32,000 bases of DNA from Hyperthermus butylicus DSM 5456 (GTDB taxonomy: Archaea; Thermoproteota; Thermoprotei_A; Sulfolobales; Pyrodictiaceae): the NCBI RefSeq assembly GCF_000015145.1, contig NC_008818.1, positions 1,470,001 through 1,502,000 on the forward strand, read 5' to 3'. Position numbers and translations under genes: made by a program. This document shows positions 12,113 to 27,920 of this stretch, one piece after another; the stretch's first letter is position 1, and each line of letters starts with the position of its first letter. The notes beneath the pieces were generated by a model. The model worked only from the letters and a program-made list of their open reading frames with translations. It searched no databases and was not told the DNA's origin.

Positions 12113-12367
12113 TTGGCTCGTTGCTGCCTACGTGGGGTTCGGCGCTTGGCTGATGTTGAGGAGAGGCTGGAAAGGATTGAGCGGGAGCTGGAGAGGATTA
12201 GGAGGCAGCTGGAGAGGCTCGAGGCGTTACTCTCGTCGTTTAGTAGTGTTGCTGGGGAGGCTGTGAGGCTTGCCGCTGCCCTATCGCTCTCTGTGGAGGA
12301 GGCTGTACGGGCCACGGAGAGGCTTGTGGCCAAGCTTAGGAGGCTTGGGGGCGGCCCGATCCGATAA
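12113..12367 (+). CDS. small coiled-coil protein
   Basis: Heptad-rich sequence (ADVEERLERIERELERIRRQLERLEALL). TTG 12146 is a possible alternative start. The gene ends 2 nt before the next gene. Confidence 0.45.
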   Translation: MARCCLRGVRRLADVEERLERIERELERIRRQLERLEALLSSFSSVAGEAVRLAAALSLSVEEAVRATERLVAKLRRLGGGPIR

Positions 12368-12369
12368 CT

Positions 12370-12570
12370 ATGGCTGTGCTGGAGGCGCTAGCGGGCTGCG
12401 AGGCTCTCAGCGTCTCGGAGATAACGCGGCGTGTCAAGGCTCTTAGGGGCTCTGCAAGCCGCACAACCATACGGTCCAGGCTAGCTGCTCTTGTCGAGGC
12501 GGGTGTTGTGGAGAGGCTGGGGAATGGAGTCACGGCTAGGTATAGGTTGAGGAGCTGTGGCAAGGACTAG
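12370..12570 (+). CDS. small winged-helix DNA-binding protein
   Basis: 66 aa. LSVSEITRRVKALRGSASRTTIRSRLAALVEAGVVERLGNGVTARYRL follows the helix-turn-helix plus beta-wing pattern of MarR/ArsR-like wHTH proteins. Confidence 0.6.
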   Translation: MAVLEALAGCEALSVSEITRRVKALRGSASRTTIRSRLAALVEAGVVERLGNGVTARYRLRSCGKD

Positions 12571-12574
12571 GTAT

Positions 12575-12730
12575 GTGCTAAAACTATTGGCTGTGCTTGC
12601 CTACCACCTGGCCCTCCTTGCAGCTGCTGTGCTGGCTGCTGTTTCACGCTTCTGCATTAAGGATGTCCGGCTGCGGGTCTGGCGGAGGCTTAGCATCTGG
12701 GGTTCAAGCGTAAACTACACCGCAATGTAG
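12575..12730 (+). CDS. possible small membrane protein (51 aa)
   Basis: GTG-initiated ORF below the track cutoff. It has one hydrophobic helix (LKLLAVLAYHLALLAAAVLAAV) followed by a basic tail. No other support. Confidence 0.25.
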   Translation: MLKLLAVLAYHLALLAAAVLAAVSRFCIKDVRLRVWRRLSIWGSSVNYTAM

Positions 12731-12819: not shown

Positions 12820-13332
12820 TTACGGAGTATTAAGTGGTAATGGCTTGGCCCGTGCTGGGTGCCCTGTCCTCCTCTTCCTCTTCCTGAGGAGCCACTCGCT
12901 ATACCTCTTGGCAGCCTCGGGGAGCCATGCTAGAAGGTCTGCACGCCCCCTCTCGTAGAGTAGTACTGCTGCTGCTAGGCGGTGGACGCATAGCGGCGCA
13001 CCGGCGAGCCTCGTTAGTGGACACTGGCACGTTGCATCCTCCCGTGTGATCTTTACGGTGTAGACTTGCTGGTCTTCCGGTAGCCTGCCCACGCTGATGT
13101 CTACGTGGCGTGGCTGCCGCCCCTCAACTATGTCTAGGAGGTCCCAGTGGGTGGCACTGTGCACCGGGTTCTGCTGGTGGAGCCTCTGGCTCGGCACCAG
13201 CACCACTGCCTCGTCCTCGGCGAGCCTCGCCATGGTTGCTTTCTGGGCTAGCCTTAGCGCCCGCCTCGCCAGATCCTCTGGCACGCCCTGGCTCCTCAGC
13301 CACTTGTACACCTCTACACCTCCTAACACCAT
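12820..13332 (-). CDS. SWIM zinc-finger protein
   Basis: The C-terminal half carries the SWIM signature CxCx10CxH (YTVKITREDATCQCPLTRLAGAPLCVHRLAAAVLL) and a basic tail (LLRKRKRR). The track ORF (to 13812) overlaps the opposing NTPase gene. ATG 13332 is preceded by GGGGGTG and lies below a TATA-like CTCTATAT at ~13403-13410. ATG 13404 is an alternative start. Confidence 0.8.
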   Translation of the reverse strand: MVLGGVEVYKWLRSQGVPEDLARRALRLAQKATMARLAEDEAVVLVPSQRLHQQNPVHSATHWDLLDIVEGRQPRHVDISVGRLPEDQQVYTVKITREDATCQCPLTRLAGAPLCVHRLAAAVLLYERGRADLLAWLPEAAKRYSEWLLRKRKRRTGHPARAKPLPLNTP

Positions 13333-13482
13333 TTCAGCACCCCCGTTAACTGGTATTACCAGTTCCACCCTTATAACCCATTGCTGGCCTTGACGGAGTT
13401 GCATATAGAGACTACATTCTATTCCGATGATACCCGGGTAGCACTGGTACCCCGCACGGACCACATGGGTGTCGCTGTATGA

Positions 13483-16400
13483 GTGATACCGCACACGAGT
13501 ATGCTGGGGCTCCACGCTATGCCCGTAGCTGCTAGATGCGGGCCGGCACCGAGGAGGCTGCCGAGCCTCACTGGGACCGACGCAGCCAGGCTCGACGAGT
13601 ACCTGCCACCACTGCCTAGCAGGGTTAGGGTGTACCAGCAGGTCCAAGAGGCTCTCAACGAGATGGAGCGTAGCAGCGACCCGGTAATAGTGATGCTTGT
13701 TGCTGAGTGGGGTGAGGGGAAGACAAGCATCTACAATGCCAGGATAAGGCCGTGGCTGGAGTCCAGGGGCTGGGCTAGCCTCGAGGCAAGAGCTGCAACT
13801 GTGATGGAGCATCTCCGCTCCCTGGATGGGAGGCCCGAGAAGAGCCCAGCCTACCGGCTCCTAGCCGCGATCCTCGCTGCCGGCCTCGAGCAGGCCGGGC
13901 TACTGGCGAAGTACGGTGTGCCAGGTGCCGCGGGCAGCCTCCGCAGCTACGTCGAGAACGTGCTCAGAGAGCTGACCAGTGGCGGGGGCAGGCTCGTAGT
14001 ATTCATAGACGAGCTTGAGGACCTCGTGGCGGGGGCTAGCGAGGAGCAGCTAGCCGATCTCGTAGCCGGGCTTGTGGGGATCCTCAATGGCGACGTTGAG
14101 ATAGTGTCTGCCCGCTGTAGCGGAGAGGGCTGCATGCCAGGCTCGCTCCACCTTATCGTCAGCCTTACGCCGCCAGCCTATAGCAGGCTCATGGGGCTGA
14201 GGGACTTCTCCACCATAGCGTCTAGGTTGAAGAGGAGGGTTCGCACCATCTGGATACAGCCCCTCCCACGCCGCGAGGCCTTCGCGTTCCTCGAGAGTCT
14301 CGCCCGCTACAGCCTAGGCGCAGGCCTAGACTCCATCCTGGAGTCCCCATCAATGGCTAACGCTGTTGTCTCAGGCACGCTCGGCAACATGGGTGCGCTC
14401 GTCTCAGCCTTCCGCTACCTTGTGTCCTGGGCTAGGGGCCGTGGCGGCTGCGGCGACCGGGTAGCAGTGCTAGGTGCCTCCGAGCTTGTCGAGGCCCTGC
14501 AGGGCCTCACACTGAGTGTCGGCGGCGCTGAGCTGCCAGCCCTCAACCCCGAGGCCTATACGAGGCTCATGGATGGCTGGGAGGCACGCTCAAAGCTAGC
14601 AGGCTTCGAGCCCGCAGCCGCACGCCGGGTCCTCGACGAACTCGTGGTTAGGGGCCTCGTGGAGGCCGAGGAGCTAGCCCAGGTGACCGGGCTCGAAGAC
14701 TCCGTAGGAGATGTCATTGCCGAGCTGAACATCTACGGGGAGTCCGGCTGGCCCCGCCGCGAGCTAGGCGTAACGAGGATGGTCCATAAGGTGCTGGCTG
14801 TAGCTGCTGTCGAGGACGCCTTCAAGCTGCTACGAGCGGTGGAGCCGGAGGCTGTGAAGAGGCTACCCCAGCTAGCCCCTAGGGACGACTTTAGGCCCCT
14901 TGAAGCTCTCCTAGACAGCCTCGTCTACATGGACTCTAATGGCAGGCTCGTAGTGGCAGTCCCCGAGTCTAGGGAGGAGAGCGTCGAGCTAGTCCAGGAC
15001 ACGGCGCCCCTGGAGCTGAGCCGGAGCGAGGCTGAGAGGCTAGCAGGGCTCCTATGGGACAATGTGTTCTCGAAGCTAGCCGCTACGGGTGGCGCACGGG
15101 CCTACCTGCTATCGCCCAGACTGCAGCGTGTACTCTACGTCAGCCCCGAGCTTCACTACCTAGACTTCATATCCGATCGCGTGGAGAGGCTACACCTCCT
15201 ACGCCGCGTATACAGCGAGGCAAACCGCTCACACCTCGTGGCTGGCCTCGCAGCAGTACTCGCTGGTACAGGGCTTCTGAATGAGCCCCTAACAGCTGCT
15301 GGCGAGGGGCTGGCGAGGGGTGAGGTAAGGCTCCACGGTGCACACGTAAGGATACTGGTCTACGCTGTGCCAGGCCAGGTTACCAGCAGCGAAGCCGAGA
15401 GACTGGAGAAGAGGCTTATGGGCATAGTTATGAGCGGGTGGAGGCCCCACGCAGTACTACTAGCATACCATGGCCCCGTGGAGCCCAGGGCTGAGGACCA
15501 GCTAGAAGCACTGGAGAGGAAGCTCTTCATAAAGATTGTGAGGCTCCCCATAGCCTCGATGGTGTCTAAGGTTCAGCTGCTAGTGCTCGGAGCCAAGCTA
15601 GCCGATGCTGCAGGAGGCCTCGACGGCGCCCTGCGCGAAGCCAGCACAGCTGCGAGAGACATGTCAAGGGCTAGGGAGCTAGGTTTCGACCCGCTGCGCC
15701 TGCAGAGCCTCCTGCGGGAGCTCGCTGGGGAGCTGCGGCCTGGCGAGAGGCTAGAGAAGGCGCTAGAGGAGGGTATAGCTGGCACCCCGCTGATAATCTT
15801 CGACCCCAAGCTTGGCTACGATGTCGAGAAGCCAACCGAGCTAAGCGGGGCGCTGCGCTACTTCCTAACAGTGCCCGCAACCAGGGCCGCCGCACAGGAG
15901 GCGCTGAGGACAGCCTACGAGTACGTTATGAGGTACCACATCCACCGCTGGGGCGGCGAGGCGGCAAGGGGCCTACTGAGCCCCGACATCGAGCGGGGCG
16001 AGGTTGGAACACTGGAGAAGTACATGCTACTACTAGCCGCCAACAAGATGGTGGAGAAGAACAATGGTACCGTACGCATCGACGTGCTGAGCCCCGCTGA
16101 GAAGGCAGTGCTAACAGCTCTGGAGCAGGCAGGGGCTCGCAGCGAGGAGGGCATCCCTGCTGGTGCTGCATGGAGCCTCCTCGTGGTGGCTGCGAGGAAC
16201 CCTGGCACCAAGAGGATGCTGCTACAGTCCCTGCTCTACCGCGGCCTCATAGAGGTAGTGGGTGGAGGCAAGAGGATAGACCCTGACCGGGCTAGGATCC
16301 GGCTAGTAGACTCCGACGAGGACATAGCCCGGCTAGTAGAGAGGGCTACGGCTCTACTCGATAGGCTAGCCTCGGACCCCGAGGCCCTGGCCTGGGGCTA

Positions 16401-17943
16401 CACAGTCTCGGCGAAGGCGAGGGGCTACCGTGCAGGCAGCCTGGAGGCATTCATCGAGAAGATGAGGGGGCTCCTCGACACGGCGAGCGAGGCGCTTAGG
16501 GCTGGAGAGAAGCTGATGGCGCTAAGGCTTCTACGGACGGTTATCGATGTAGCCGAGTACGTGGCAGAAGAGGTTGTCGGTAAGCACGTGAAGCCCGCTG
16601 CTGAAACCGCTAGGAGGCTACGTAACGAGCTGATAAGGGCCATAGAGGAGGCCCGGGAGCTGAGGGAGCGCAGCGAAAAGGCCCTCGCCAGACTGCTAGG
16701 TAGGAATGTTACACTTGAAATCGAGGAGCTCGCCAAGCTTGAAGAGGCACTAAAGATGTTCGAGGAGGTTGAAGGGCTCAGGCTTAGCGAGGAAGAGCTA
16801 GACACAAGGATTGCCGAGCTGTGGGAGGAGGCCAGGAGGCAGAGCCCACGAGACCCGGGTAGGAGGCTACCATTCTACGTGCAGGGCCTAGGGCCTGTAA
16901 TACACTTCAACTATAAGCTTTGGCTGCTCGCCGAGAAGCTCAGAGAGATAGGCATAGCAGAAATAGGTGATGACGGCGTTAGACTAGGCCCACTACCGTC
17001 CAGGGTCCTGCAGAGCCTCGAAGCACTCGTAGAGGAGGCTAGGAGGATTACCGAGGAGATGGCTGATGTTAGGAGGAGGGCTGAGAGACTGGCAGAGATG
17101 CTCAAGAGCCTGGGCGTCGAACCGCCAAGGCCCGAGGCCATAGTGTTGAGGGGGCTCGAGGCGCCCGAGAAGCTCACTGTAGATGATGCACTGCAACTGC
17201 TAAGAGCCGCGAGGGAGAGGGTAGAGGAGGCCAGGAGGCCCATAGTCGAGCTAGAGGAGAGGACTAGAAAGCTCCTCGAGCTAATGGAGCAGCTCGACAG
17301 CCTAACGAGAGAAGCAGGGACCTGGCTTGAAGGCCTACGTAAAGCCTCAGAAGACGCGAAATGGGCTGGCCACGGCCTGGCATCCAGGCTAGCAGAAACA
17401 GCTGAGGACCTAGAGCTCGCGCTAGGCCAGGCTGAGAGCCTGCGTGCAAAAGCACTGGAGGCTCTTTCCGTAAGCCCTAGCATAGGAGAAGCCGTTGAGG
17501 CGGCATTGAAGCTTGTGGAGAGCGCCGTGGTAATGCTGAGAGACAGTATCGACCGTGGCCGCCGCATCTACAGCGACGTTGAGAGGGAGGCTGAGAGGAT
17601 AAGACAGGCACTAGAAGCCGAGGCTGAGGCTCTCCGCGAAGCCCTAGCCAGGACCGGCGTCGCTGTACCAGAGAAGCCACGGGAGGCAGACACCTTCGAC
17701 GCGATAAGGAGGCTCTCAGCCTACATCGAGGAGCTGCAGAGCATCGCGCTAAACGCGGGAGCGCTCACAAGCCGGGAGCTAGACGCCTACAAGGCTATAG
17801 CACTTGAGAGGAGGAGGCGGGGCGAGCTACTACTAAGGGAGGCCGTGGAAATCGTAGCTGAAAGGCTATCACTCCCAAGAGAGGAGGCTAAGAAGATAAT
17901 CATAAGCCTCATCGAGAGAGAAATACTCGAACCCAAGCTCTAG
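13483..17943 (+). CDS. giant P-loop/AAA+-like NTPase with winged-helix-like segments and C-terminal coiled coil (uncharacterised)
   Basis: 1486-aa uninterrupted ORF. Walker A AEWGEGKTS (aa 74-82), Walker B LVVFIDELED (aa 171-180), then SLHLIVSLTPPAYSRL...RRVRTIWIQPLPRREAFAFLESL (ORC/Cdc6- or STAND-like lid). Putative wH segments include LSPAEKAVLTALEQAG...LLYRGLIEVVGGGKRI. About 400 C-terminal residues are E/R/A/L heptad-rich. Start is uncertain (GTG 13483, ATG 13501 or ATG 13516). Confidence 0.85.
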   Translation: MIPHTSMLGLHAMPVAARCGPAPRRLPSLTGTDAARLDEYLPPLPSRVRVYQQVQEALNEMERSSDPVIVMLVAEWGEGKTSIYNARIRPWLESRGWASLEARAATVMEHLRSLDGRPEKSPAYRLLAAILAAGLEQAGLLAKYGVPGAAGSLRSYVENVLRELTSGGGRLVVFIDELEDLVAGASEEQLADLVAGLVGILNGDVEIVSARCSGEGCMPGSLHLIVSLTPPAYSRLMGLRDFSTIASRLKRRVRTIWIQPLPRREAFAFLESLARYSLGAGLDSILESPSMANAVVSGTLGNMGALVSAFRYLVSWARGRGGCGDRVAVLGASELVEALQGLTLSVGGAELPALNPEAYTRLMDGWEARSKLAGFEPAAARRVLDELVVRGLVEAEELAQVTGLEDSVGDVIAELNIYGESGWPRRELGVTRMVHKVLAVAAVEDAFKLLRAVEPEAVKRLPQLAPRDDFRPLEALLDSLVYMDSNGRLVVAVPESREESVELVQDTAPLELSRSEAERLAGLLWDNVFSKLAATGGARAYLLSPRLQRVLYVSPELHYLDFISDRVERLHLLRRVYSEANRSHLVAGLAAVLAGTGLLNEPLTAAGEGLARGEVRLHGAHVRILVYAVPGQVTSSEAERLEKRLMGIVMSGWRPHAVLLAYHGPVEPRAEDQLEALERKLFIKIVRLPIASMVSKVQLLVLGAKLADAAGGLDGALREASTAARDMSRARELGFDPLRLQSLLRELAGELRPGERLEKALEEGIAGTPLIIFDPKLGYDVEKPTELSGALRYFLTVPATRAAAQEALRTAYEYVMRYHIHRWGGEAARGLLSPDIERGEVGTLEKYMLLLAANKMVEKNNGTVRIDVLSPAEKAVLTALEQAGARSEEGIPAGAAWSLLVVAARNPGTKRMLLQSLLYRGLIEVVGGGKRIDPDRARIRLVDSDEDIARLVERATALLDRLASDPEALAWGYTVSAKARGYRAGSLEAFIEKMRGLLDTASEALRAGEKLMALRLLRTVIDVAEYVAEEVVGKHVKPAAETARRLRNELIRAIEEARELRERSEKALARLLGRNVTLEIEELAKLEEALKMFEEVEGLRLSEEELDTRIAELWEEARRQSPRDPGRRLPFYVQGLGPVIHFNYKLWLLAEKLREIGIAEIGDDGVRLGPLPSRVLQSLEALVEEARRITEEMADVRRRAERLAEMLKSLGVEPPRPEAIVLRGLEAPEKLTVDDALQLLRAARERVEEARRPIVELEERTRKLLELMEQLDSLTREAGTWLEGLRKASEDAKWAGHGLASRLAETAEDLELALGQAESLRAKALEALSVSPSIGEAVEAALKLVESAVVMLRDSIDRGRRIYSDVEREAERIRQALEAEAEALREALARTGVAVPEKPREADTFDAIRRLSAYIEELQSIALNAGALTSRELDAYKAIALERRRRGELLLREAVEIVAERLSLPREEAKKIIISLIEREILEPKL

Positions 17944-19605: not shown

Positions 19606-20085
19606 TTAAATAGATAAGCGGGCCGAGCGTGCCGCGCTGGCTAGAGGCCGAATAGTCCTCCAAGACCCTCGCTGAGGTCTACTTCTCTCTTCCTCCTTCT
19701 CCTCTTCTCCTTCTTTTTTCTTTTCCTCCTCCTTGGCTGGCGCTGGCGCGGCTACTGCCTCCAGGCCCAATTCTTTGGCTTTGTCTCCTAGGGCTGCTAT
19801 GACTGCTAGTTCCTCCTGTACTGCCCACGCGATTATGTCCTCCTCTAGGCCTGGGAGTAGGATGCCCGCCTCTCCAGCTACTGCCTTAGCCTCTAGGAAC
19901 GCCTTTGCCAGGGCTGCTTCGACGGCTCCGGGTACTGCAGGGTAGACTATCTCGACCGCTAGGCCTATGGCCTCCTTAGCGGCGTTTATGAAGTCATTCT
20001 TCACCTCCTTCAGGTCGAAGAGTAGCTGGTCCCTCGGGATTATCACTCCATCGTCGTACATTGCGAGTATCTTGAGGCTTATCTC
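19606..20085 (-). pseudogene. ribosomal stalk protein P0 (uL10) C-terminal fragment
   Basis: (A)LEISLKILAMYDDGVIIPRDQLLFDLKEVKNDFINAAKEAIGLAVEIVYP...AAPAPAKEEEKKKEGEEEKEEE matches the C-terminal half of archaeal P0. The universal stalk tail EVDLSEGLGGLFGL* (stop at 19641) is present but one frame off. The N-terminal ~200 aa are absent, with an in-frame TGA just upstream at ~20087. GC-ending codons are unlike the neighbouring AT-rich genes. Confidence 0.75.
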
Positions 20086-20095
20086 TAAAGCTCAT

Positions 20096-20775
20096 TTAGG
20101 CGAATCCTATGGGAAGGATGAATCGTATCCTCCTATAACCCGCCCTGATGTAGGCCTTGGTTACATCAATTGCCTTCTCTACACTACGGTACTGTACTTT
20201 CGCTTTGAATAGCCATGGGACTTGGCAGAACTTGCACCTGGATTTACATCCCCTCATTAGCTCTATTGGTGGGTATAATTTGAACTCCTCAACATATGGA
20301 TCATAGTCGTCGAGATCGATCATCTCGATCCTAGTAACGTTAAATACCCCATTCTCGTCCATGTAGGCTATGTTTGGAACATTGCCTGGATTCTCCCTCC
20401 TCATTATACTCTCAATTAGACCAGTTATTGCGTTCTCCCTGTCTCCAATTACGGCGGCCCACGCGCCATCCCTGAGGAGATGCCAGTACGCTCCCTCCGC
20501 ATGTGGACCGCTAACTATTACGAGATATTTTCTAGCTACCTCTCTAATTTCTGAGCGGAGTTCTAGGTATAGGGGGAAGGATACTCCATAAAGGATGACG
20601 GGCTGGTATCCCTTAGACTTCCATTCATTGGCTTCTTCTAACGGGTTTCTTCTACCATGGTGATTGGTATGTTTTTACCGTACTCCTTGATTAGTGACGC
20701 TATTATTGGACCGAATGCGTTTTTCGCACCGTATGCTATTCTCGCGATTACAGCTATCTTCAACCCTAACACCAT
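20096..20775 (-). pseudogene. radical SAM protein remnant (frameshifted, C-terminally truncated)
   Basis: CxxxCxxC cluster motif IELMRGCKSRCKFCQVPW. The upstream Rossmann/B12-binding-like part (MVLGLKIAVIARIAYG...ITMVEET | LEEANEWKSKGYQPVILYGVSFPLYLELRSEIREVARKYLVIVSGPHAEG) needs a frame change near 20640. The ORF ends ~45 aa after the Cys motif, directly abutting the P0 fragment, so most of the radical-SAM barrel is missing. Confidence 0.7.
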
Positions 20776-21417
20776 CGTTGGCTTAAACCATGATTGTTGT
20801 GCCAGGCATATCTTGCATGATCTATCAATATATACCTCATTTAGTATCTGGCTTAATTCTTCGCTCATACAGTGGGATACACATAAAGGTCCCTCAACTA
20901 TCGAGACCAGTTTTCGTATGTTTTCCGGTGTTATACCGCCGATCCCTCCGACTATCATATATGGTTTTTACTTAGTATTGTGGCTGCTTTTTCTACAATA
21001 TTTATTGTGCCTGGATGACCGCAACCTATGATCAGTATTGGTCCCTTGTTTGATTCAAGTATAAGGCTTAATTCGTAGATGTCTTCTTTTGGATCGTAGA
21101 GTGGTGGCATTAGTACTATGTCGTCAATTCTCATGACCTCATTTATAACTATTACTTTGAAATTGAAACCTAGCCTCTCTAGTTTGTTTGTCGGTCCTGG
21201 AGGCGCGTAGATTGTTATGTTCTTGTTGCATTTTTGTTAGTGCGGAGAATCCAGCGTAGTGGTCTCTGTGCCAGTGACTTAGAACTGCGTAGTCTAGTTT
21301 AGATAGGTCTAATCCCAGTATACTGGCGTTGTATTCTAGGGAGTAGTATTTTGATCCTGCATCGAAAAGTACTTTCTTTCTTGCTTCTATGTAGATGCTT
21401 AGTCCTTTTCCCCTCAT
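20776..21417 (-). pseudogene. MBL-fold metallo-hydrolase remnant (at least 3 frameshifts)
   Basis: HxHxDH motif LSHWHRDHYAG in ORF 21139..21417. The continuation lies in other frames: NKNITIYAPPGPTNKLERLGFNFKVIVINEV...LILESNK | GPILIIGCGHPGTINIVEKAATIL | MIVGGIGGITPENI...VSHCMSEEL. Frame changes occur near 21225 (A5 run), ~21045 (aaaggg) and ~20958. Confidence 0.6.
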
Positions 21418-21510
21418 TATTCTTCCTGTTTTAGTGGTTTCATTTAATATATGTAGTATCGCTATTGTTCTTCACACTAAGTGCTGTCAGGACTCTTGTA
21501 GGAGGTTATG

Positions 21511-21539
21511 AGTGAGATATATATAAAGTGAGATATATA
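21511..21539. repeat. 13-bp direct repeat AGTGAGATATATA x2 (period 16)
   Basis: Copies at 21511-21523 and 21527-21539, in the spacer between the oxidase operon end and the MBL remnant start. AT-rich and TATA-like on the minus strand. Confidence 0.9.
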
Positions 21540-21545
21540 AAAAAA
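21539..21545 (-). terminator. T7 run downstream of the bd oxidase operon
   Basis: A7 on the plus strand equals TTTTTTT on the minus strand, ~20 nt after the subunit II stop (21566). This is the archaeal oligo-T terminator type. Confidence 0.4.
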
Positions 21546-21565
21546 TGGGGGTCGGGTTTATAGCG

Positions 21566-22777
21566 TTATTTTTCTCTTTTTACTAGTATTACGTAGAGGA
21601 AGTAGAATGTTGATGCTATTAGGAAGGCCATGAATAGGCCTGTTATGACTTGCACACTTTGTACTGTAGCTAGGGTGTTATATGTTTCGAGGTTTAGTAT
21701 GTTGGCCAGCCTCGATATCTGTTCTGGTGGTATTTGGGCCAGTATGTTTTGGCATGACGCTGGGCTTCCTAGGCATGCGATGAAGTAGGGGTATTGGCTG
21801 AAGGCGTTGAGTAGTTCTCCTAATGCTACTGTGAATAGTGCTATCAGTCCGCCTAGTAGTAGTGGTGTAGCCTTTGATTGTGGTATGATTCCTGCCCTAA
21901 GGTGCTTGTACGCTGTTGCGATGATGTAGATTTGTGCTAGGAAAAATATCATCTTTAATACGAATAGCCAGCTGACGTCAAAACCTATAGTCCCGTCTCC
22001 TGCTTTCCAGCCTAATCTAGCGAACACATTGTTGAACTTGTATGGAATGTTCCTTAGACTTACTGCGTACCAGAGGCCCATCACAATCATTAAGACCAGG
22101 CCTATTGCAATGATTGGCGTTAACTCCTTCACTACCTGGCTTACGGCCCTCTTGTATCCCTCATCTGTTGCCTTCACATATGAGTATGCTAGTCCTCCAA
22201 CTATTGCGAATGCTCCAGCCGTTACTGCTGCTATCAGTGATTTGAGGTATAGTGGCCAGTATGTTGGGTTACCTGTTAGAGCTTTTGCAACGTTGAGTGA
22301 TAGTTTGCCCCCTGATAGTTCAAGACCTACTGGAATGTTTAGGAATGCAAATACTGCTCTGAAGGCGAATGGTATTAGTAGTGCTGATAGAGCGAGTAGC
22401 GCGCCGAAAAAGTAGTGCACTCTTCTACTCCACCTGTCCCAGCCATAGTAGAATCCTGTTATAGAGAAGAAGTGGACTACGATCATGAGTATTGCTAGGC
22501 CGAATGGTATTAGTGTAAGGTGTCCTGCTAGTCCTAGGAAGTCTGGATAGAAGCTTAGTAGGAAGACTGTGAATGCTGTTGCGTATACACCGGCTACCCC
22601 ATAGGTTGCGGCGTAGAATTTCATTAGCTTATGGGCTACTTTATCCAGGTCCTCGTCGCCACTATTGTCTGCTTTCCTCTTTAGGTATGGCACATAAAGT
22701 GCTAGGAATATGCCTAGATTAACCATTACTATGTGGAACGCGAATACTAATGCTAGCCAGAATATGCTCCATAACAT
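21566..22777 (-). CDS. cytochrome bd-type oxidase second subunit (CydA-like, CydA'-type rather than canonical CydB)
   Basis: 403-aa polytopic membrane protein. Its ATG lies 1 nt after the cydA stop and is preceded by GGAGGTGA. The segment FSITGFYYGWDRWSRRVHYFFGALLALSAL parallels the CydA segment FIYLTYYGWKKFGKSAMVVLLFLSFIGPW in the upstream gene. No frameshift despite the AT-rich sequence. Confidence 0.75.
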   Translation of the reverse strand: MLWSIFWLALVFAFHIVMVNLGIFLALYVPYLKRKADNSGDEDLDKVAHKLMKFYAATYGVAGVYATAFTVFLLSFYPDFLGLAGHLTLIPFGLAILMIVVHFFSITGFYYGWDRWSRRVHYFFGALLALSALLIPFAFRAVFAFLNIPVGLELSGGKLSLNVAKALTGNPTYWPLYLKSLIAAVTAGAFAIVGGLAYSYVKATDEGYKRAVSQVVKELTPIIAIGLVLMIVMGLWYAVSLRNIPYKFNNVFARLGWKAGDGTIGFDVSWLFVLKMIFFLAQIYIIATAYKHLRAGIIPQSKATPLLLGGLIALFTVALGELLNAFSQYPYFIACLGSPASCQNILAQIPPEQISRLANILNLETYNTLATVQSVQVITGLFMAFLIASTFYFLYVILVKREK

Positions 22778-22778
22778 G

Positions 22779-24473
22779 TTATTTCACCTCCTCTGGTTTA
22801 CCTGGTAGCCATAGGAATCTGTAGACGCTGTATCCTAGTGCTGCTAGTATTGCTAGGAAGAATATTGCCACTAGTGTCACGGCACCGACGCTTGGCGGGT
22901 TGACTGTGTGGGCTACATCGGGCGTCATTACTCCATAGATCGTCCATGGCTTCCTCCCTATTTCTCTTACTGCCCATCCTAGGAAGCTGACGAACTGTAT
23001 GATTATTATCGAGAGCGGTGCTACCGACAGTAGCCATCTAGGAGTTTTTTCCGGATCCTTAGTCCTCCATAGGTAGAAGACTATTGCTAGGGCGTATAGT
23101 CCCATGAGTATTCCAAGACCGGTCTTGGCATAGTATAGGTAGTGTATTATTAGTGGTGGTTTACAGGAGCCGATTCTCGCTGCGTCCTCCTGAAGCGTTG
23201 CTGGGAAGAAGCAGTAATCTGATGGAATCTTATCATAGTTGGGTAGTGGAGCATTGGGATCTCCGTAAGCTAGGAGCGCTACTAATTTCTCGCCGCCTGG
23301 TAATATTTTCGTGACGGGTGTTATCTGGTCGGTGGTGGCCTCCATCGCAGCGAATTTCTCTGGGTTATAATGGGCTATTGATGTACCCATCTCGTGGCCG
23401 AATACGAAGCCCTGTATTGCTATTGTAACGAGTGCTGATACAGCTGCAAACTTGAAGGCAGCATTGACGTAATCTTTGTACTCTTTGGGTGATTTGCCAT
23501 AGCTCTTTATCCTCATTGCATACGCGGCCATTATTGTGAAGGAGCTTACTGTTAATGCCGCCCCTATAACGTGTAGTATTGAAGCTAGGTAGACCGGGCT
23601 CTTGAAGGTGACCGTTGTTACTCCGACAGTCTCTATTGTTTTGACAAGTATCTTGTCCACGATGTCTTTAACGGGGACGTTTAGGATGTCTGGGTGGGCC
23701 TGAACGTAGTCTTTGTTTGCAACCAGTGCCAGTATGCTGTCTTTAACTGTATAGCCTGCCCAAGCCTCATAGACTAATCGTTGAACTATCTTTACCGGCA
23801 TCTCTACTACTACGGCGTCGCTCAATGTATCCTTGACAGTCATTCCAGCGGCCTGTAGTGCTGTGACGTTTAGTGCCTCGACTAAATTGCTGGGTACGAC
23901 AAGAGTCATCTTTGGATAACCTTGATCGTATAGCCATGCACCCGTGTTGGGATCATAGGCAGGCACTATGCCAGTAGGGGCTACCATATAGCTGTTTACG
24001 GAGACGATCATTGCAGCACTGTACCATGGCCCTATGAATGATAGGAATAGCAGTACGACCATGGCGCTTTTACCGAATTTCTTCCATCCATAGTATGTTA
24101 AGTATATGAATACGACTTCTAGTAGGAAGGCGAATACCTCAGCGTACAGTGGGAAGTATATGTATCTACCAGCTGCTTCTGTTAGGTTTGGCCAAAGTAG
24201 GACAAGGCCGAACTCGCTTGCCGTGCCTGTAGCAGCTCCTACTGCGAATACTATTACGAATCCCTTGAACAATGTATACGCTAGTCTCTCCCATTTTTTA
24301 TCATTGGTTTTGGCATATATTAGGTATGCTATAAATGATAGGAAGCTGAGGCCGACGACGTATTGTAGAATCGCCCAGTGGGCCTCAATACCTATGAGTG
24401 ATAGGACCCTGTCGGAAAACGCTGGATATTGACCCCATTGACCTAATAGGTCGGCCAATACCTCACCCATCAA
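22779..24473 (-). CDS. cydA: cytochrome bd-type quinol oxidase subunit I
   Basis: 564 aa. Conserved CydA elements: N-terminal His helix (GIEAHWAILQY), GAATGTASEFGL, PLYAEVFAFLLEVVF...YYGWKKFG, a Q-loop region with HYNPEKFAAMEA (cf. QPxKxAAxE), and C-terminal GWAVREIGRKPWTIYG (cf. GWxxxExGRQPW). Confidence 0.9.
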   Translation of the reverse strand: MMGEVLADLLGQWGQYPAFSDRVLSLIGIEAHWAILQYVVGLSFLSFIAYLIYAKTNDKKWERLAYTLFKGFVIVFAVGAATGTASEFGLVLLWPNLTEAAGRYIYFPLYAEVFAFLLEVVFIYLTYYGWKKFGKSAMVVLLFLSFIGPWYSAAMIVSVNSYMVAPTGIVPAYDPNTGAWLYDQGYPKMTLVVPSNLVEALNVTALQAAGMTVKDTLSDAVVVEMPVKIVQRLVYEAWAGYTVKDSILALVANKDYVQAHPDILNVPVKDIVDKILVKTIETVGVTTVTFKSPVYLASILHVIGAALTVSSFTIMAAYAMRIKSYGKSPKEYKDYVNAAFKFAAVSALVTIAIQGFVFGHEMGTSIAHYNPEKFAAMEATTDQITPVTKILPGGEKLVALLAYGDPNAPLPNYDKIPSDYCFFPATLQEDAARIGSCKPPLIIHYLYYAKTGLGILMGLYALAIVFYLWRTKDPEKTPRWLLSVAPLSIIIIQFVSFLGWAVREIGRKPWTIYGVMTPDVAHTVNPPSVGAVTLVAIFFLAILAALGYSVYRFLWLPGKPEEVK

Positions 24474-24521
24474 CTAGTTATTACAATGTTCTGTTTTTAG
24501 TTCATAACACAAGCTCAAATA

Positions 24522-24566
24522 AAAGAATTTCGTTTAGAAGTGGTAATTTCGAAGAAGAAATTCTTT
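24522..24566. repeat. 10-bp inverted repeat AAAGAATTTC-N25-GAAATTCTTT in the cydA promoter region
   Basis: Arms at 24522-24531 and 24557-24566 are exact reverse complements. A third AATTTC lies at 24545-24550. The promoter-proximal arm (24522-24531) overlaps the minus-strand TATA-like TTTTATTT (24517-24524), ~45-50 nt upstream of ATG 24473. Confidence 0.85.
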
Positions 24567-24638
24567 CTAACCGTACCCATTTTGTAGAATAAGAGTTTTC
24601 TCTAGATGATATTTCAACACTATGTCACTCTCATTCTA

Positions 24639-25688
24639 TTATCCTTTTTCCAAATATGAGGAGTCTGAAATACTAACAAGCACTAATAGGAACCCCAGTA
24701 TGAGCTCTATACTCCCATACAATTCTGAAATGAGCGCTATCAATACCGAAAAGATTAGGAGTGATAGTGCTATTCTCCATGTGAGGAATGGTATTTTGAC
24801 GGGAGCATTATTGCAGTTGTGAGGAAGGCGTTGATGTCTGTGAATGTGAGCATAGTCGCTATTATGGTGAATTTGAAGAGCCAGGGGTCTACGATTAATG
24901 TGAGTATGCTCAATATAAGTAGTGAGATGAACAATTTTGTTCCAGACCTTATTAGTGTACCAAGGATAGCTCCTAGTGTAAGGGCTCCTGCATAGAGTGT
25001 CAGACTCATGTATATGTTACTCGACACGGCACTTGGCATATACACGAGCTTTGCTATTGACAACATGGAGATCAATAATGCTATAATTTGTATAGTGATT
25101 CTATTGTCCTCTTTACGAGGGTTTATTAATGCTTCTGTGAATTTGTCGACTACTTCGAGAGTTATCGCTGGTATGATTGGAGTCCGCTCCTGCACAACTA
25201 TTAATATCATAAAAATTATAATTATTAATATAATAGTTAAGATATGGATATCGAAAACAGTATACAATACTGACAACATTGCATGTGCAATACCAGGAGT
25301 AAACCCGTAGCTTCGAAATAAGAGATGCTATATCCCCCGACGGATCACCGCGCAGAATAGAAGCCAAACAGTAGAGGTACTTACGGCTAGGGATGAAGTA
25401 GAGAGTAGATAGGCAATCATCGCATAGCAGATGGAGTCGAAGACCATAACAAGGGAGACAGCTAGTATCGAGAGAATGGTAGATACAATAGTCTCCCTTC
25501 CTAGAGTATGCTTGGACAGTATATGGTACTGAAATTCTATAGGATAAGAACCATGTAACACCCCATATAGCAACCAATAAGGCAATATCGGTATACCTGT
25601 CCGTTAGCAGTAATGATACCTTAGCCTCAGTCAGGCTCCATACGAATAGCACACTGCCAGTAAATGCTACATACGGCCAGACCCTCAA
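24639..25688 (-). pseudogene. polytopic membrane protein in at least 4 reading frames (probable pseudogene)
   Basis: TTG 25688 is preceded by GGAGGAGG. Hydrophobic segments continue through successive frames: MRVWPYVAFTGSVLFVWSL...LLVAIWGVTWFL; ETIVSTILSILAVSLVMVFDSICYAMIAYLL; ORF 24770..25279 (169 aa, may still be expressed alone); then RIALSLLIFSVLIALISELYGSIELILGFLLVLVSI...EKG* (stop 24639). No family recognised. Confidence 0.4.
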
Positions 25689-25727
25689 TGGCCTCCTCCA
25701 TCCCCTAACACTATCATACCACTGGAG

Positions 25728-26108
25728 TTAAGGGGGTACATTCCCAACTGGAATGTATCTTCCCTTACAACCCCTTTTGAGAATCTCAGAGTAAAGGCCC
25801 ATTATTTTACGTGATTCACCCTCAGCAAAGAAGGCCTCCATACAGGCCTCGTTTAGGTGAGCATGTAGCCATGCTACAATCACCTCACTGTACTCCTCCG
25901 TTATATTAGATAGCTGACCGCTAGCCGGACAGTGAGCTACCAATATTCCCTTGCAATCATGTGGTACTAGTAGGTGGCTATGATCCTCTAAGTAACCCTT
26001 TATCGCTTCCTCAATTAACCTACTTCTATTTACTCCCGTCTGGTTGGATAGGACTTCGAGCATTTTGGCAATAGACTCATTAATACTTATTCCAAATCTT
26101 CTCTTCAC
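25728..26108 (-). CDS. NikR-family (ribbon-helix-helix plus metal-binding domain) transcriptional regulator
   Basis: RHH N-terminus (KRRFGISINESIAKMLEVLSNQTGVNRSRLIEEAIKGYL) and an ACT-like C-domain (VAHCP...EVIVAWLHAHLNEACMEAFFAEGESRKIMGLYSEIL, cf. NikR lHvHld..CLEv.vv.G). GTG 26108 overlaps the permease stop (GTGA). The track start at 26159 would overlap the permease by 55 nt. Confidence 0.8.
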   Translation of the reverse strand: MKRRFGISINESIAKMLEVLSNQTGVNRSRLIEEAIKGYLEDHSHLLVPHDCKGILVAHCPASGQLSNITEEYSEVIVAWLHAHLNEACMEAFFAEGESRKIMGLYSEILKRGCKGRYIPVGNVPP

Positions 26109-26974
26109 CTGTACCACCCCGCGAAATACACGACTCCAAACTCTAGTACGAGTAAGCACCCCGTCATCGCCGAGGAACTCTGGTCAAATCCAATTGCTAA
26201 TGCGAGTCCTGCGAGGAATGAGAATAACGCTATTAGAATGCTCAGTGTTAAAGCCCTATAGACACCCTTTGAAGCATAGTGCGCTATGAGGCCTGGTATA
26301 AGTATTAATACGTGCTCTAATATGAAGCCGACTGTATTGATCATGACTATGACTACAATCCCTATGCTAGTATATAATGCGAGATCGTAGAGCCAGACCT
26401 TGAGTCCGGAGAGCCTTGCATCCTCAATGTCGGCTCCTATGTATACTATCTCTCTAGTCGTCGTATACGCGAAGAACATGAAAAGTATAGCGACGATCAT
26501 AGATATTACCGCGTCGCTTCTCGAGGAAAGCAGTGGATCTCCAAAAACAACGGCCCATATCCTTGATGAGTACGGATACCTAGTCAAGACATAATATGAA
26601 GCCAGCACCCCGCCACTTGCAGTGAGACCAACGAATAAGCTGGTCGCCTCATCTGGATCCATGCCCTTATAGGTCAACCATCCGACTAGGTAGACGAGTA
26701 CAAGGCCGATAACTAGCATCCATACTCTCATCGGGAGGCCTATAAAGACTGATAATGGTATTTAGAGGGCGGCGGCCAAGAATGCACTGTGAGGTGAAGC
26801 TGCTGCCATGTACATTAGCCTTCTTGAATAAACCAGCAAACTAAGTGCACCGAATGCTACTCCGCTTGAAGCCATTACAATTACCCACAGTGGATTGTAT
26901 TCTAATGCTAACACAACCGCTAATGATAATGATGACATCAGTATTATTGTGAGAAGCAAAGTGTGGTTCCTCAT
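26105..26974 (-). pseudogene. ABC-3 (ZnuB/MntB-type) metal transporter permease with in-frame TAA
   Basis: ORFs 26762..26974 and 26105..26731 are in the same frame, separated only by TAA at 26762-26764: ...PHSAFLAAAL*IPLSVFIGLPMRVWMLVIGL.... The combined ~289-codon product has the ABC-3 permease pattern (…VVFGDPLLSSRSD…IGADIEDARLSGLKV…LEHVLILIPGLIAHY…). Confidence 0.8.
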
Positions 26975-27747
26975 TTTCTAGCACCTTCATGCTCGTCAAG
27001 AATATGTATATGTTTCTCCACCTCTACTATTGCCTCACCGTATACTTTCGATAGGAACGCTCGCCCTTAACACCTGATCCGGTGATCCCACCGCATATAT
27101 TATTCTTATTAAGTAGTACTACAACATCTGTGTATTTCTCCAGCAACAGGGATCATGGCTTGTTACATTAACCAGTTTCGTCTTTGATATCTCTCCTAGC
27201 AGATATGAGAATTCAATCTTGCCATGGGGATCTATGGGTGCTAAAGGCTCATCTAATAATAGAATTATAGGATCGTAGAGTAGGGTTCTGGCAATGAATA
27301 CTCTCATTAATACTCCACCACTTAGCTCCCAGAGCCTCTTTCCAAGGACGTCTCTCGTTAATCCAGTCCTGCGTAGAACGTCATAGAGTTTTTCCTTGAC
27401 ATCACTTCCCTCACTTAGTCTAGGCCAACGGCGCGTGAATAGGGCTCTAGATGAAAGGAAATCGTACACCGTCATGGGATTGTACCTAGATATTGGAGAC
27501 GTTGTGGCACATAGCCAATACACTCACCCGCAATGCTAGGATCGCCAGTAGCTTCACTTCCACATACTCTGACTATTCCCTTAGTCGGTTTGATGAGTCC
27601 TGCCATAATTCTTAGAAGGGTAGTCTTACCAACACCGTTCGGTCCAATAACCTGAACTAATGCTGGACCTTGTATGTTTATGTTAATGTCTTCTAATATG
27701 GGCTCGCCATCAACCGAGTAGCTTGTGTTAATCAGTTGAATCTGCAT
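26971..27747 (-). pseudogene. ABC-3 metal transporter ATP-binding protein with at least 4 frameshifts
   Basis: The pieces occupy all three reading frames, with a frame change at each junction: MQIQLINTSYSVDGEPIL...GPNGVGKTTLLRIMAG...IGYVPQRLQ | ISRYNPMTVYDFL...LSGGVLMRVFIARTLLYDPIILLLDEPLAPID...VTSHD | LLLEKYTDVVVLLNKNNICGG | SPDQVLRA | AFLSKVYGEAIVEVEKHIHILDEHEGARK*. The last stop overlaps the permease ATG (ATGA at 26971-26974). Confidence 0.85.
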
Positions 27748-27890: not shown

Positions 27891-27920
27891 TGTAGAGCCG
27901 TGTAGCGCTGCTCGGGGGCG

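What the first reader, a model, noticed from the sequence alone, without database searches (positions are those of the whole stretch)
12820..17943. Divergent SWIM zinc-finger / giant P-loop NTPase gene pair: candidate uncharacterised two-component system
A ~170-aa protein ends in a clear SWIM finger (CQCx10CVH) and a basic tail. It is transcribed divergently, ~150 bp away, from a 1486-aa protein. A single palindromic TATA-like CATATAGAG/CTCTATATG sits between the two genes.

The large protein has these parts.
- An N-terminal P-loop domain: [AG]xxxxGKT as AEWGEGKTS, hhhhDE as LVVFIDE, and an ORC/STAND-like lid.
- Several winged-helix-like segments.
- About 400 residues of C-terminal coiled coil, ending in another wH-like module.

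SWIM fingers are classically partnered with SNF2-type ATPases. Pairing with this kind of giant AAA+/STAND-like NTPase is not an arrangement I recognise. The architecture (NTP switch, nucleic-acid-binding modules, long coiled coil) recalls surveillance or chromosome-organising machines, but no nuclease or other effector is visible. The neighbouring small coiled-coil, wHTH and TM genes (12113-12730) could belong to the same module.
Basis: partly seen in the sequence, partly recalled or inferred. Interest (0 to 1): 0.65.

Follow-up and report, generated by a model that had tools for sequence, protein, structure and literature searches.

The report
Orphan giant ATPase, unrelated SWIM neighbour
A very large, uncharacterised DNA-associated ATPase gene in a heat-loving archaeon sits beside a small zinc-finger gene only by accident; in related archaea its usual neighbour is the DNA-cutting enzyme NurA (often with the HerA motor), which points to a rare DNA-surveillance machine I found no description of.

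Summary
Both genes are real. A 170-aa protein (12820-13332, minus strand) carries an invariant CxCx10CxH SWIM-type motif. It lies 186 bp from a divergently transcribed 1474-aa P-loop protein (13519-17943, plus strand).

The proposed two-gene system is not supported. No SWIM homologue occurs in any of 39 foreign loci that encode a relative of the ATPase, including the closest one (72% identity). No ATPase relative occurs in four loci that carry SWIM homologues.

The large protein belongs to a small archaeal family of about 228 representatives among 1.84 billion proteins, most about 1400 aa. It has no Pfam, NCBIfam or PADLOC model.
- The N-terminus is an ORC/Cdc6-clade AAA+ module.
- Winged-helix modules and an alpha/beta domain follow.
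- The C-terminus is about 380 aa of long helices with a conserved apex.

The layout resembles published BrxC, but sequence tests for BrxC membership fail. In 20 related loci the gene is next to a NurA nuclease gene, a HerA gene, or both. Three of these also carry an ArcS-like/TGT-like gene pair, and two of those three lie beside integrases and defence-type genes.

The window's subclade lost this linkage once. Its copy is an intact orphan among housekeeping genes. It is most likely a DNA-binding ATP switch that directs NurA/HerA. Whether the role is defence or repair is unresolved.

The parts
12820..13332 (-). Gene for a 170-aa SWIM-type zinc-finger protein. It is specific to the Pyrodictiaceae. 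It is a neighbour of the ATPase gene, not part of a system with it.
   Evidence: ORF. There are 15 homologue clusters at 47-83% identity. Alignment A2 supports the start at 13332. PF04434 is matched below threshold in 14 of 15 homologues.
12982..13029 (-). SWIM motif CQC-x10-CVH (residues 102-117).
   Evidence: C102, C104, C115 and H117 are invariant in 15 sequences.
13333..13518 (.). Divergent intergenic spacer of 186 bp. It holds the single CATATAGAG site (13402-13410) and an imperfect 14-nt inverted repeat (13357-13370 and 13436-13449).
   Evidence: Sequence, repeats. The motif count is no better than chance.
13519..17943 (+). Gene for the 1474-aa giant AAA+ ATPase. It is an orphan member of a family whose genes usually lie next to NurA and/or HerA genes.
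13606..14436 (+). ORC/Cdc6-clade AAA+ core plus lid (about aa 30-306). Walker A is at 13702-13728 and Walker B at 13993-14013. The candidate arginine finger is R236/R239/R240.
   Evidence: Invariant columns. AlphaFold2 model. Foldseek top hits are archaeal ORC2, Cdc6 and Orc1, E 3e-7 to 3e-5.
14476..14808 (+). Winged-helix region after the lid (about aa 320-430).
   Evidence: Helix and strand pattern. Weak HTH_IclR, Crp, ScpB and TrmB hits in family members. Foldseek alignments to Cdc6/ORC run on into their winged-helix domain.
15094..15618 (+). Alpha/beta sandwich domain with a two-helix connector (about aa 526-700). It holds the family-invariant F550 and H644. No catalytic motif is recognisable.
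   Evidence: Secondary structure. Invariant columns.
15826..16308 (+). Tandem winged-helix-like modules (about aa 770-930).
   Evidence: AlphaFold2 model. There are only weak Foldseek hits to tandem winged-helix proteins such as Stn1 and IclR-type regulators.
16510..17652 (+). Long-helix (coiled-coil) region, aa 998-1378. A small alpha/beta apex lies at about aa 1065-1156 (16711-16986) and carries the conserved motif P1118-F-Y ... G1125 ... N1131-Y-K1133.
   Evidence: Helices of 39-63 residues. SMC_prok_B hit at ORF residues 1177-1425 (protein residues 1165-1413), E 3.4e-5. PDB coiled-coil hits. F1119 and K1133 are invariant and N1131 nearly invariant across the whole family.
17692..17940 (+). 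C-terminal four-helix module (aa 1392-1474).
   Evidence: L1416 and L1464 are invariant.

Best explanation
The two genes are unrelated neighbours.

The SWIM gene. It encodes a small zinc-finger protein found only in the Pyrodictiaceae. It has no fixed genomic partner.

The large gene. It encodes an intact but orphaned member of a rare archaeal family of about 1400-aa proteins. The parts, in order:
- winged-helix DNA-binding modules;
- an alpha/beta domain;
- a long antiparallel coiled coil with a conserved apex.

Genomic partners of the family (shown). The ancestral and most common partner is the nuclease NurA, often with the translocase HerA. Three loci also have an ArcS-like/TGT-like gene pair.

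Proposed mechanism (inferred):
1. The protein binds DNA through its winged-helix modules.
2. It uses ATP binding and hydrolysis to assemble on DNA, much as ORC/Cdc6 and BrxC do.
3. It thereby recruits or licenses NurA, or HerA-NurA, to degrade or resect that DNA.

The subclade that includes the window lost the adjacent nuclease gene once. There the protein would have to work with a nuclease encoded elsewhere, or have taken on a chromosomal DNA-maintenance role. Whether the family serves defence or repair is not settled. I lean towards an origin in defence.
For: No SWIM pairing:
- No SWIM homologue occurs in 39 ATPase loci.
- No ATPase relative occurs in 4 SWIM loci.

Fold: Foldseek hits to ORC2, Cdc6, Orc1, TnsC and RdrA on a model with pLDDT 87.

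ATPase intact: Walker A and B, R240 and E253 are invariant across the family.

Discrete family: 228 hits at E<=1e-3, and 199 at E<=1e-10. Most complete proteins among the 150 best are 1390-1600 aa.

Linkage:
- NurA lies directly downstream, from a short overlap to a 77-bp gap, in L004/L015, L005, L012, L013, L016, L019-L021 and L043. It lies one gene away in L042.
- NurA-HerA lies directly upstream in L022-L024, L031 and L032. HerA lies upstream in L033 and L036.
- HerA-NurA is divergent upstream in L025, L030 and L035.
- Pfam confirms NurA, DUF87/HerA, DUF5591 and TGT above threshold.
- The NurA motifs GxDG, E117 and DGP are invariant, and H282 is nearly so.

Evolution:
- In an NJ tree the NurA-less members form one subclade nested inside NurA-linked clades.
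- ATPase and NurA pairwise distances correlate: r = 0.75, Mantel 0 of 2000.

Context:
- Distant cassettes lie beside integrases, a DndB-like gene, a Dam methyltransferase, Shedu SduA and Cdc6.
- The window's neighbours are housekeeping genes.
- An acylphosphatase gene lies near the ATPase gene both in the window and in P. abyssi.

Published BrxC has the same order of modules and shows ATP-regulated DNA binding and effector binding (PMC12839542 section 16; PMC13326643 abstract).
Against: - The window has no NurA or HerA gene. A NurA HMM finds nothing in 32 kb. The partner in this organism is therefore unknown.
- Function is inferred from relatives at 20-47% identity.
- There is no experimental evidence for any member of the family.
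- The ATPase-NurA distance correlation could reflect shared species history alone.
- Sequence tests do not link the family to BrxC, so the BrxC analogy rests on the order of modules only.
- A fixed chromosomal site, 64% identity to P. abyssi, and the absence of mobile or viral context fit a housekeeping role as well as, or better than, defence.
Confidence: 0.6

Rival explanations
1. The SWIM protein and the giant NTPase form a two-component system specific to H. butylicus. The SWIM finger would act as a DNA- or protein-binding adaptor expressed from a shared divergent promoter.
For: - The two genes are divergent and 186 bp apart.
- An imperfect 14-nt inverted repeat flanks the middle of the spacer.
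- SWIM domains elsewhere accompany ATPases (my own knowledge of the SNF2 association).
Against: - The adjacency is found only in this genome. It is absent from 39 ATPase loci, including relatives at 72%, 64% and 55% identity.
- It is absent from 4 SWIM loci.
- The shared 'palindromic TATA' is a single, non-palindromic 9-mer at chance frequency.
Confidence: 0.07
2. In the Pyrodictiaceae the protein is a housekeeping factor for chromosome maintenance or double-strand-break repair. It would be a functional analogue of coiled-coil ATPases such as Rad50, working with the cell's own HerA-NurA, and not an immune protein.
For: - It is a single intact copy among housekeeping genes, with no integrase or transposase nearby.
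- An acylphosphatase gene lies nearby both in the window and in P. abyssi.
- It is 64% identical to P. abyssi over 1474 aa.
- There are no viral-contig relatives.
- HerA-NurA act in DNA end resection in thermophilic archaea (abstracts of PMC3326311 and PMC4641729).
Against: - The distribution is patchy, with divergent paralogue-like copies inside the Pyrodictiaceae: Pyrolobus P0024 and L035 at about 25% identity.
- Distant members sit beside integrases, Shedu, a DndB-like gene, a methyltransferase and a DNA-modification-type TGT/ArcS pair.
- The ATPase is of AAA+ type with both Walker motifs in the first 170 residues, not a split ABC head.
Confidence: 0.25
3. The protein is a divergent BrxC and the locus is a remnant of a BREX or BREX-related system.
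For: The order of modules matches published BrxC: ORC/Cdc6 AAA+, wHTH, an alpha/beta domain of about 200 aa, wHTH, then a coiled coil of 250-500 aa with a small distal subdomain (PMC12839542 section 16; models).
Against: - None of 17 family members hits the BrxC Pfam domains (PF19557, PF25791, PF25792, PF25796) or DUF499 at E<=0.1.
- NCBIfam gives no BrxC hit.
- A profile-profile comparison with a 15-sequence alignment of type-1 BrxC gives a probability of 0.6%.
- The Pfam scans I ran found no PglZ, PglX or BrxB, either in the window or among the flanking genes I scanned in L022, L023, L031 and L032.
Confidence: 0.05

Closest known systems
BrxC (BREX P-loop protein, DUF6079) and related DUF499 ATPases
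   Same: - It is a giant single-chain protein with an N-terminal ORC/Cdc6-clade AAA+ domain.
- It has a wHTH, a central alpha/beta domain and further wHTH modules.
- It has a long C-terminal coiled coil with a small apical subdomain.
- It has no enzymatic effector of its own and is encoded beside the effector (PMC12839542; PMC13326643).
   Different: - No sequence relationship is detectable.
- The partner is NurA with or without HerA, not PglZ, PglX or BrxB.
- It is about 200 aa longer.
- The family is almost exclusively archaeal and very small.
HerA/FtsK 'capture' systems with Orc/Cdc6 ATPases, and the BREX-related capture (BRC) system. These are computational predictions (PMC10853773; PMC12839542 section 36).
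   Same: An ORC/Cdc6-type ATPase is combined with a HerA-type translocase, a nuclease and, in some loci, a TGT-type enzyme, in mobile or defence contexts.
   Different: - Those papers do not mention NurA at all (0 occurrences).
- BRC requires PglZ, a STAND NTPase and DUF4007. None of these appeared among the genes I scanned.
- The described Orc/Cdc6 proteins carry an inactive restriction-endonuclease insert, not a coiled-coil tail.
- The window copy has none of the partners.
Archaeal Orc1/Cdc6 replication initiators
   Same: They are the best structural matches for aa 1 to about 430: the AAA+ core, the lid and the winged-helix domain.
   Different: - The TIGR02928 score is 21.9 bits against a cut-off of 181.
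- More than 1000 extra residues follow.
- A separate bona fide Cdc6 gene lies beside the family gene in L002.
Mre11-Rad50-HerA-NurA end-resection machinery of thermophilic archaea
   Same: A coiled-coil ATPase is genomically coupled to HerA and NurA.
   Different: - Rad50 is an ABC ATPase with a split head and a zinc hook. This protein has both Walker motifs within the first 170 residues and an AAA+ fold.
- No Mre11 was seen in the loci examined.

Membership tests
SWIM zinc finger (PF04434) | CxCxnCxH zinc-binding signature | tested here: met
   C102-x-C104-x10-C115-x-H117 is invariant in 15 homologues.
SWIM zinc finger (PF04434) | Score above the Pfam gathering threshold | tested here: inconclusive
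   The window protein scores 13.6 bits (E 0.052) against a cut-off of 19.6. However, 14 of 15 homologues match, with a best E of 0.0015. UniRef names the P. occultum homologue a SWIM-type domain protein.
[quoted passage not shown] | Walker A, Walker B, a lid and a following winged helix, with closest structural similarity to ORC/Cdc6 | tested here: met
   GEGKT and DE are invariant. The Foldseek top 8 are archaeal ORC2, Cdc6 and Orc1 plus PAB2304, E 3e-7 to 3e-5.
Orc1/Cdc6 replication initiators (TIGR02928) | Score above the NCBIfam cut-off | tested here: not met
   21.9 bits against 181.3.
BrxC / DUF6079 | Sequence match to the BrxC domain models or to a BrxC profile | tested here: not met
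   No PF19557, PF25791, PF25792 or PF25796 hit in 17 members. hhalign against BrxC alignment A8 gives a probability of 0.6%.
BrxC / DUF6079 | Genomic association with PglZ and a methyltransferase | tested here: not met
   The Pfam scans I ran found none, either in the window or among the flanking genes scanned in relatives' loci.
BrxC / DUF6079 | Module order: AAA+, wHTH, alpha/beta domain, wHTH, coiled coil with a distal subdomain | tested here: inconclusive
   The secondary-structure order in the AlphaFold2 models agrees with the published description. No 3-D superposition was possible, because no BrxC structure appeared among the PDB matches.
KAP P-loop NTPases (PF07693) | Full-domain match, with transmembrane helices inserted in the NTPase domain (the TM feature is my own knowledge of the family) | tested here: not met
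   18.3 bits against a cut-off of 20, covering only model positions 4-41 around Walker A. No hydrophobic insert appears in the model.
SMC/Rad50-type coiled-coil ABC ATPases | Split ABC head, with Walker A at the N-terminus and Walker B plus signature motif at the C-terminus | tested here: not met
   Both Walker motifs lie within aa 62-165. The SMC hit is the coiled coil only, at 21.8 bits against a cut-off of 567.
NurA/HerA-linked giant AAA+ family (defined here) | Full-length homology, including the EWGEGKT loop and the apical PFY...NYK motif | tested here: met
   The window protein aligns end to end with 16 members. W64-T69, D164, E165, F550, H644, F1119 and K1133 are invariant.
NurA/HerA-linked giant AAA+ family (defined here) | An adjacent NurA and/or HerA gene | tested here: not met
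   A NurA HMM finds nothing in the 32-kb window. The feature is met in 20 related loci.
Known anti-phage defence systems (PADLOC-DB v2) | A match to any PADLOC model | tested here: not met
   No hits at E<=1 for the ATPase, the SWIM protein or the downstream 199-aa protein.

The most novel reading that the evidence does not exclude
The family marks a kind of archaeal DNA-degradation system that I found no description of.
- A BrxC-like giant AAA+ sensor or scaffold licenses NurA, or the HerA-NurA machine.
- In some lineages (Thermoplasmata, Hydrothermarchaeota, Archaeoglobales) an ArcS-like/TGT-like pair writes a 7-deazaguanine mark on host DNA as the self signal.
- In the Pyrodictiaceae the sensor has become a fixed chromosomal gene. 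In Hyperthermus it now acts on the cell's own HerA-NurA in trans, or has been repurposed for genome maintenance.
Probability: 0.3. Interest if true: 0.7.

Novelty: new variant of a known kind. Interest (0 to 1): 0.42.

Why it matters
If the inferred partnership is real, it would add a third kind of machine that uses the HerA-NurA resection apparatus. The other two are recombinational repair with Mre11-Rad50 and the HerA-based defence systems. It would also be an archaeal counterpart to the poorly understood BrxC-type 'scaffold ATPases' of BREX. The cassettes that carry an ArcS-like/TGT-like pair would be candidates for restriction-modification based on 7-deazaguanine in archaeal cells. For annotation, the practical result is simpler: the SWIM gene and the ATPase gene should not be annotated as one system.

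Tried and rejected
- Family libraries. PADLOC gave nothing and NCBIfam and Pfam gave nothing above threshold for the ATPase. PADLOC and NCBIfam gave nothing for the SWIM protein or the 199-aa downstream ORF, and Pfam gave nothing for the 330-aa SWIM ORF or the 199-aa ORF.
- PDB sequence search. A search with the family profile returned only coiled-coil matches.
- Foldseek on the C-terminal half. No match below E 0.01.
- BrxC test. hhalign against a single BrxC sequence and against a 15-sequence BrxC alignment gave no relationship.
- Viral contigs. No relatives.
- Conserved partner in the NurA-less subclade. The genes just downstream in L001 (256 aa), L002 (242 aa) and L042 (284 aa) are unrelated to each other and to anything in the window.
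- Antisense 'conserved' ORF clusters inside the ATPase gene are artefacts of the coding strand.
- Degenerate NurA in the window. None found.
- Pyrolobus fumarii context. Its homologue P0024 could not be looked up because it is not on record.
- HerA-NurA in L002. I tested whether this pair, 4.8 kb upstream of the ATPase gene, is the canonical repair pair. The test was inconclusive. The HerA proteins of L002 and L035 are about equally distant from S. solfataricus HerA, and the NurA profile hits no PDB chain.
- Literature. Searches for a prior description of a NurA plus giant ORC-like ATPase system found none.
- Organism.


Full report
**What is in the sequence**

The window has two divergent ORFs at the stated place.

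The minus-strand ORF can be read as 330 aa (12820-13812). Its 15 homologue clusters are 157-200 aa and align from the ATG at 13332, so the protein is 170 aa. C102-x-C104-x10-C115-x-H117 is invariant in all 15 sequences, and a basic tail follows. Pfam SWIM (PF04434) is matched below its gathering score: 13.6 bits against 19.6 for the window protein. It is matched in 14 of 15 homologues, which together with the invariant ligands makes the SWIM reading sound.

The plus-strand ORF is 1486 aa at most (GTG at 13483). The database product is 1474 aa, and the homologue N-termini fit the ATG at 13519. The spacer is therefore 186 bp.

The 'palindromic TATA-like' element is one copy of CATATAGAG at 13402-13410. 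It is not a palindrome, and a single occurrence of a 9-mer is what chance gives.

**The organism**

The product lies on a contig of 1,667,163 bp. From memory this is the genome size of Hyperthermus butylicus, but I could not confirm it. The nearest named relatives are Pyrodictium abyssi and an uncultured Hyperthermus sp..

**Is the pair a system?**

No. I collected 39 foreign loci that encode a relative of the large protein. Neither tblastn nor an HMM of the SWIM family finds a SWIM homologue in any of them.

The closest relatives are included:
- L044, 72% identity over 939 aa, with 5.7 kb upstream. Its divergent neighbour is a 516-aa membrane-anchored protein.
- P. abyssi L001, 64% identity.
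- L007, 60% identity, with 10-kb flanks.
- The Hyperthermus sp. contig L010.

In the other direction, four SWIM-homologue loci with 8-kb flanks, including Pyrodictium occultum, hold no relative of the large protein. Their neighbours differ, apart from partial synteny between L037 and L038.

The small genes at 12113-12730 are convergent with the SWIM gene. The coiled-coil and TM ORFs have no homologue in any locus. The wHTH ORF has homologues about 2.9 kb downstream of the ATPase gene in L007 and L008 only.

**Anatomy of the large protein**

Two AlphaFold2 models built on a 21-sequence alignment are confident (pLDDT 87 for aa 1-760 and 85 for aa 740-1474).

- aa 1 to about 430. The best PDB matches are Aeropyrum ORC2, Pyrobaculum Cdc6 and Sulfolobus and Aeropyrum Orc1 (E 3e-7 to 3e-5). 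PAB2304, TnsC and RdrA follow. This is an ORC/Cdc6-clade AAA+ core with a lid and a winged helix.
- ATPase motifs. Walker A (W64-G-E-G-K-T69), Walker B (D164-E165), R240 and E253 are invariant even in relatives at about 20% identity. The ATPase is probably active.
- Middle region. After further helix-strand modules comes an alpha/beta sandwich (about aa 526-700). It holds the invariant F550 and H644 but no recognisable catalytic motif. Tandem winged-helix-like modules follow (about aa 770-930).
- C-terminal region. Long helices span aa 998-1378. A small alpha/beta apex (about aa 1065-1156) interrupts them and carries the family-wide motif PFY...G...NYK. A four-helix end module closes the protein.
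- The C-terminal half has no PDB match below E 0.01.

**The family**

A profile of aa 1-430 was searched against 1.84 billion representative proteins. It finds only 228 proteins at E<=1e-3, and 199 at E<=1e-10. Most complete proteins among the 150 best are 1390-1600 aa. The family is small and sharply bounded, not a tail of generic AAA+ proteins.

Named sources are:
- Pyrodictiaceae, other Desulfurococcales and Ignicoccus pacificus;
- Thermoplasmata, Archaeoglobales and Hydrothermarchaeum;
- Aenigmatarchaeota and Methanophagales;
- two bins labelled bacterial.

No member reaches a specific family model in Pfam. Only generic P-loop models match: AAA_16, AAA_22, AAA, and sub-threshold KAP and nSTAND5. 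For the window protein, NCBIfam gives only sub-threshold hits and PADLOC gives none.

**Genomic partners**

All-against-all clustering of ORFs from the loci gave two recurrent neighbours. Pfam confirms them above threshold as NurA (PF09376) and HerA (DUF87, PF01935).

| Arrangement | Loci |
|---|---|
| NurA directly downstream, same strand, from a short overlap to a 77-bp gap | L004/L015, L005, L012, L013, L016, L019-L021, L043 |
| NurA downstream, one gene between | L042 |
| NurA then HerA directly upstream, same strand | L022, L023, L024, L031, L032 |
| HerA upstream, contig ends before NurA could be seen | L033, L036 |
| HerA-NurA divergent upstream | L025, L030, L035 |

The NurA proteins keep the invariant GxDG, E117 and DGP motifs and a nearly invariant histidine.

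In L023, L031 and L032 the cassette continues with a DUF5591 gene and a TGT gene. DUF5591 is the catalytic C1 domain of archaeosine synthase ArcS, which viruses that put 7-deazaguanines into DNA also encode (10.1101/2023.04.13.536721). L022 has a TGT gene nearby.

Two of these cassettes lie beside mobile-element or defence genes: integrases, a DndB-like gene, a Dam methyltransferase, a Shedu SduA homologue and a Cdc6 gene.

**History of the linkage**

In a neighbour-joining tree the NurA-less members form one subclade. They are the window, L001, L002, L006-L008 and L010. The subclade is nested inside NurA-linked clades. The simplest reading is a single loss of the adjacent nuclease gene.

L002, the basal member of that subclade, still has a HerA-NurA pair 4.8 kb upstream. 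I could not tell whether this is the canonical repair pair.

ATPase and NurA pairwise distances correlate (r = 0.75; Mantel 0 of 2000). Shared species history could explain this on its own.

**The window copy**

A NurA HMM finds nothing in the 32 kb. The neighbours are housekeeping genes, with no integrase or transposase:
- an ABC transporter, an M20 peptidase and a PadR regulator;
- acylphosphatase and cytochrome bd oxidase;
- UbiA, Endo_dU and DUF58.

The acylphosphatase gene also lies near the P. abyssi orthologue. The gene is intact and 64% identical to P. abyssi over its full length. No relatives occur on viral contigs. It is therefore a maintained, vertically inherited orphan.

**Mechanism**

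Shown:
- the fold, the intact ATPase motifs and the order of modules;
- the bounded family and the recurrent NurA/HerA linkage;
- the lack of SWIM linkage.

Inferred:
- The protein binds DNA through its winged-helix modules.
- It assembles under ATP control, as ORC/Cdc6 proteins do and as reported for BrxC (PMC13326643 abstract).
- It recruits or licenses NurA or HerA-NurA.
- Where ArcS-like and TGT-like genes are present, a 7-deazaguanine mark may separate self from non-self.

In H. butylicus the nuclease would have to be supplied in trans. [quoted passage not shown] Otherwise the protein has a maintenance role of its own.

I put 0.6 on this overall picture, above 0.85 on the SWIM adjacency being fortuitous, and about 0.5 on the nuclease-licensing step.

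**Comparison with what is known**

- BrxC. The order of modules matches the published description of BrxC closely (PMC12839542 section 16). Membership fails every sequence test. None of 17 members hits a BrxC Pfam domain. hhalign against a BrxC alignment built from E. coli HS BrxC and 14 homologues gives a probability of 0.6%. No PglZ or PglX turned up in the Pfam scans I ran.
- Predicted 'HerA/FtsK capture' systems with Orc/Cdc6 ATPases, and the BRC system. These share the theme. They use other nucleases and extra components, and neither paper mentions NurA.
- Other families. The protein is not an Orc1/Cdc6 initiator (21.9 bits against 181), not a KAP NTPase, and not an ABC-type SMC or Rad50.

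I found no paper describing a NurA-linked giant ORC-type ATPase. That covers only the held library.

**Verdict**

The finding as written, a SWIM/NTPase two-gene system, is not supported. The large gene belongs to a rare family that I found no description of, and the family has a clear and testable genomic partnership. The window holds only an orphan copy, so the most interesting biology lies in related loci rather than here. I rate it as a new variant of a known kind (ORC/Cdc6-clade scaffold ATPases of DNA-targeting systems), with interest 0.42.

Noticed in passing
L023 7144-16026; L031 7543-15791; L032 7133-15807: A tight five-gene cassette runs NurA, HerA, giant ATPase, DUF5591 (ArcS C1 domain), TGT-like. 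It occurs in a Thermoplasmata, a Hydrothermarchaeum and an Archaeoglobales genome. In L023 it lies beside an integrase, a DndB-like gene and a Dam methyltransferase. In L032 it lies beside Shedu SduA, Cdc6 and an integrase. It is a candidate restriction-modification-like system based on 7-deazaguanine.
   Followed up: partly
L019 4180-8653; L020 9983-14445; L021 9989-14442: In three Desulfurococcales loci the giant ATPase is encoded as two abutting ORFs of about 600 and 884 aa, followed by NurA. The split falls just before the alpha/beta domain. This suggests a natural domain boundary.
   Followed up: no
window 20000-28000: An 8-kb stretch has much lower G+C than its flanks (41-47% against 54-66%). 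It carries two ORFs that match cytochrome bd oxidase subunit I (21566-24473, minus strand) and an ABC-3 transporter gene. It may be horizontally acquired. It is also notable if the organism is the strict anaerobe H. butylicus.
   Followed up: no
window 13348-13370 and 13436-13449: The spacer holds a perfect 8-nt inverted repeat (AACTGGTA/TACCAGTT), 16-32 nt upstream of the SWIM start codon. An imperfect 14-nt inverted repeat (12 of 14 complementary, arms 65 nt apart) brackets the middle of the spacer. By my rough estimate about 0.1 such pairs are expected by chance in this stretch. These could be operator sites.
   Followed up: no
L002 500-3241 (same contig as L009): A HerA-NurA pair without Mre11 or Rad50 lies 4.8 kb upstream of the ATPase gene in the basal member of the NurA-less subclade. 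A bona fide Cdc6 gene lies directly upstream of the ATPase gene. This may be a remnant of the ancestral linkage.
   Followed up: partly
L044 5708-9028: In the closest relative (72% identity) the called gene ends after 937 aa, and a new ORF starts 115 bp later. This is either a disrupted gene or an assembly error.
   Followed up: no
window 12370-12570; L007 17280-17474; L008 8153-8347: The 66-aa wHTH ORF (HTH_20/IclR-like) has homologues at 46-48% identity about 2.9 kb downstream of the ATPase gene in two Pyrodictiaceae MAGs. This is loose synteny, not an operon.
   Followed up: no
window 15915-16211, 16911-17567 and other minus-strand ORFs inside 13519-17943: Long antisense ORFs lie inside the ATPase gene, and the 330-aa extension of the SWIM ORF overlaps its 5' end. 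They appear 'conserved' across loci only because they shadow the coding strand. They are not genes.
   Followed up: yes
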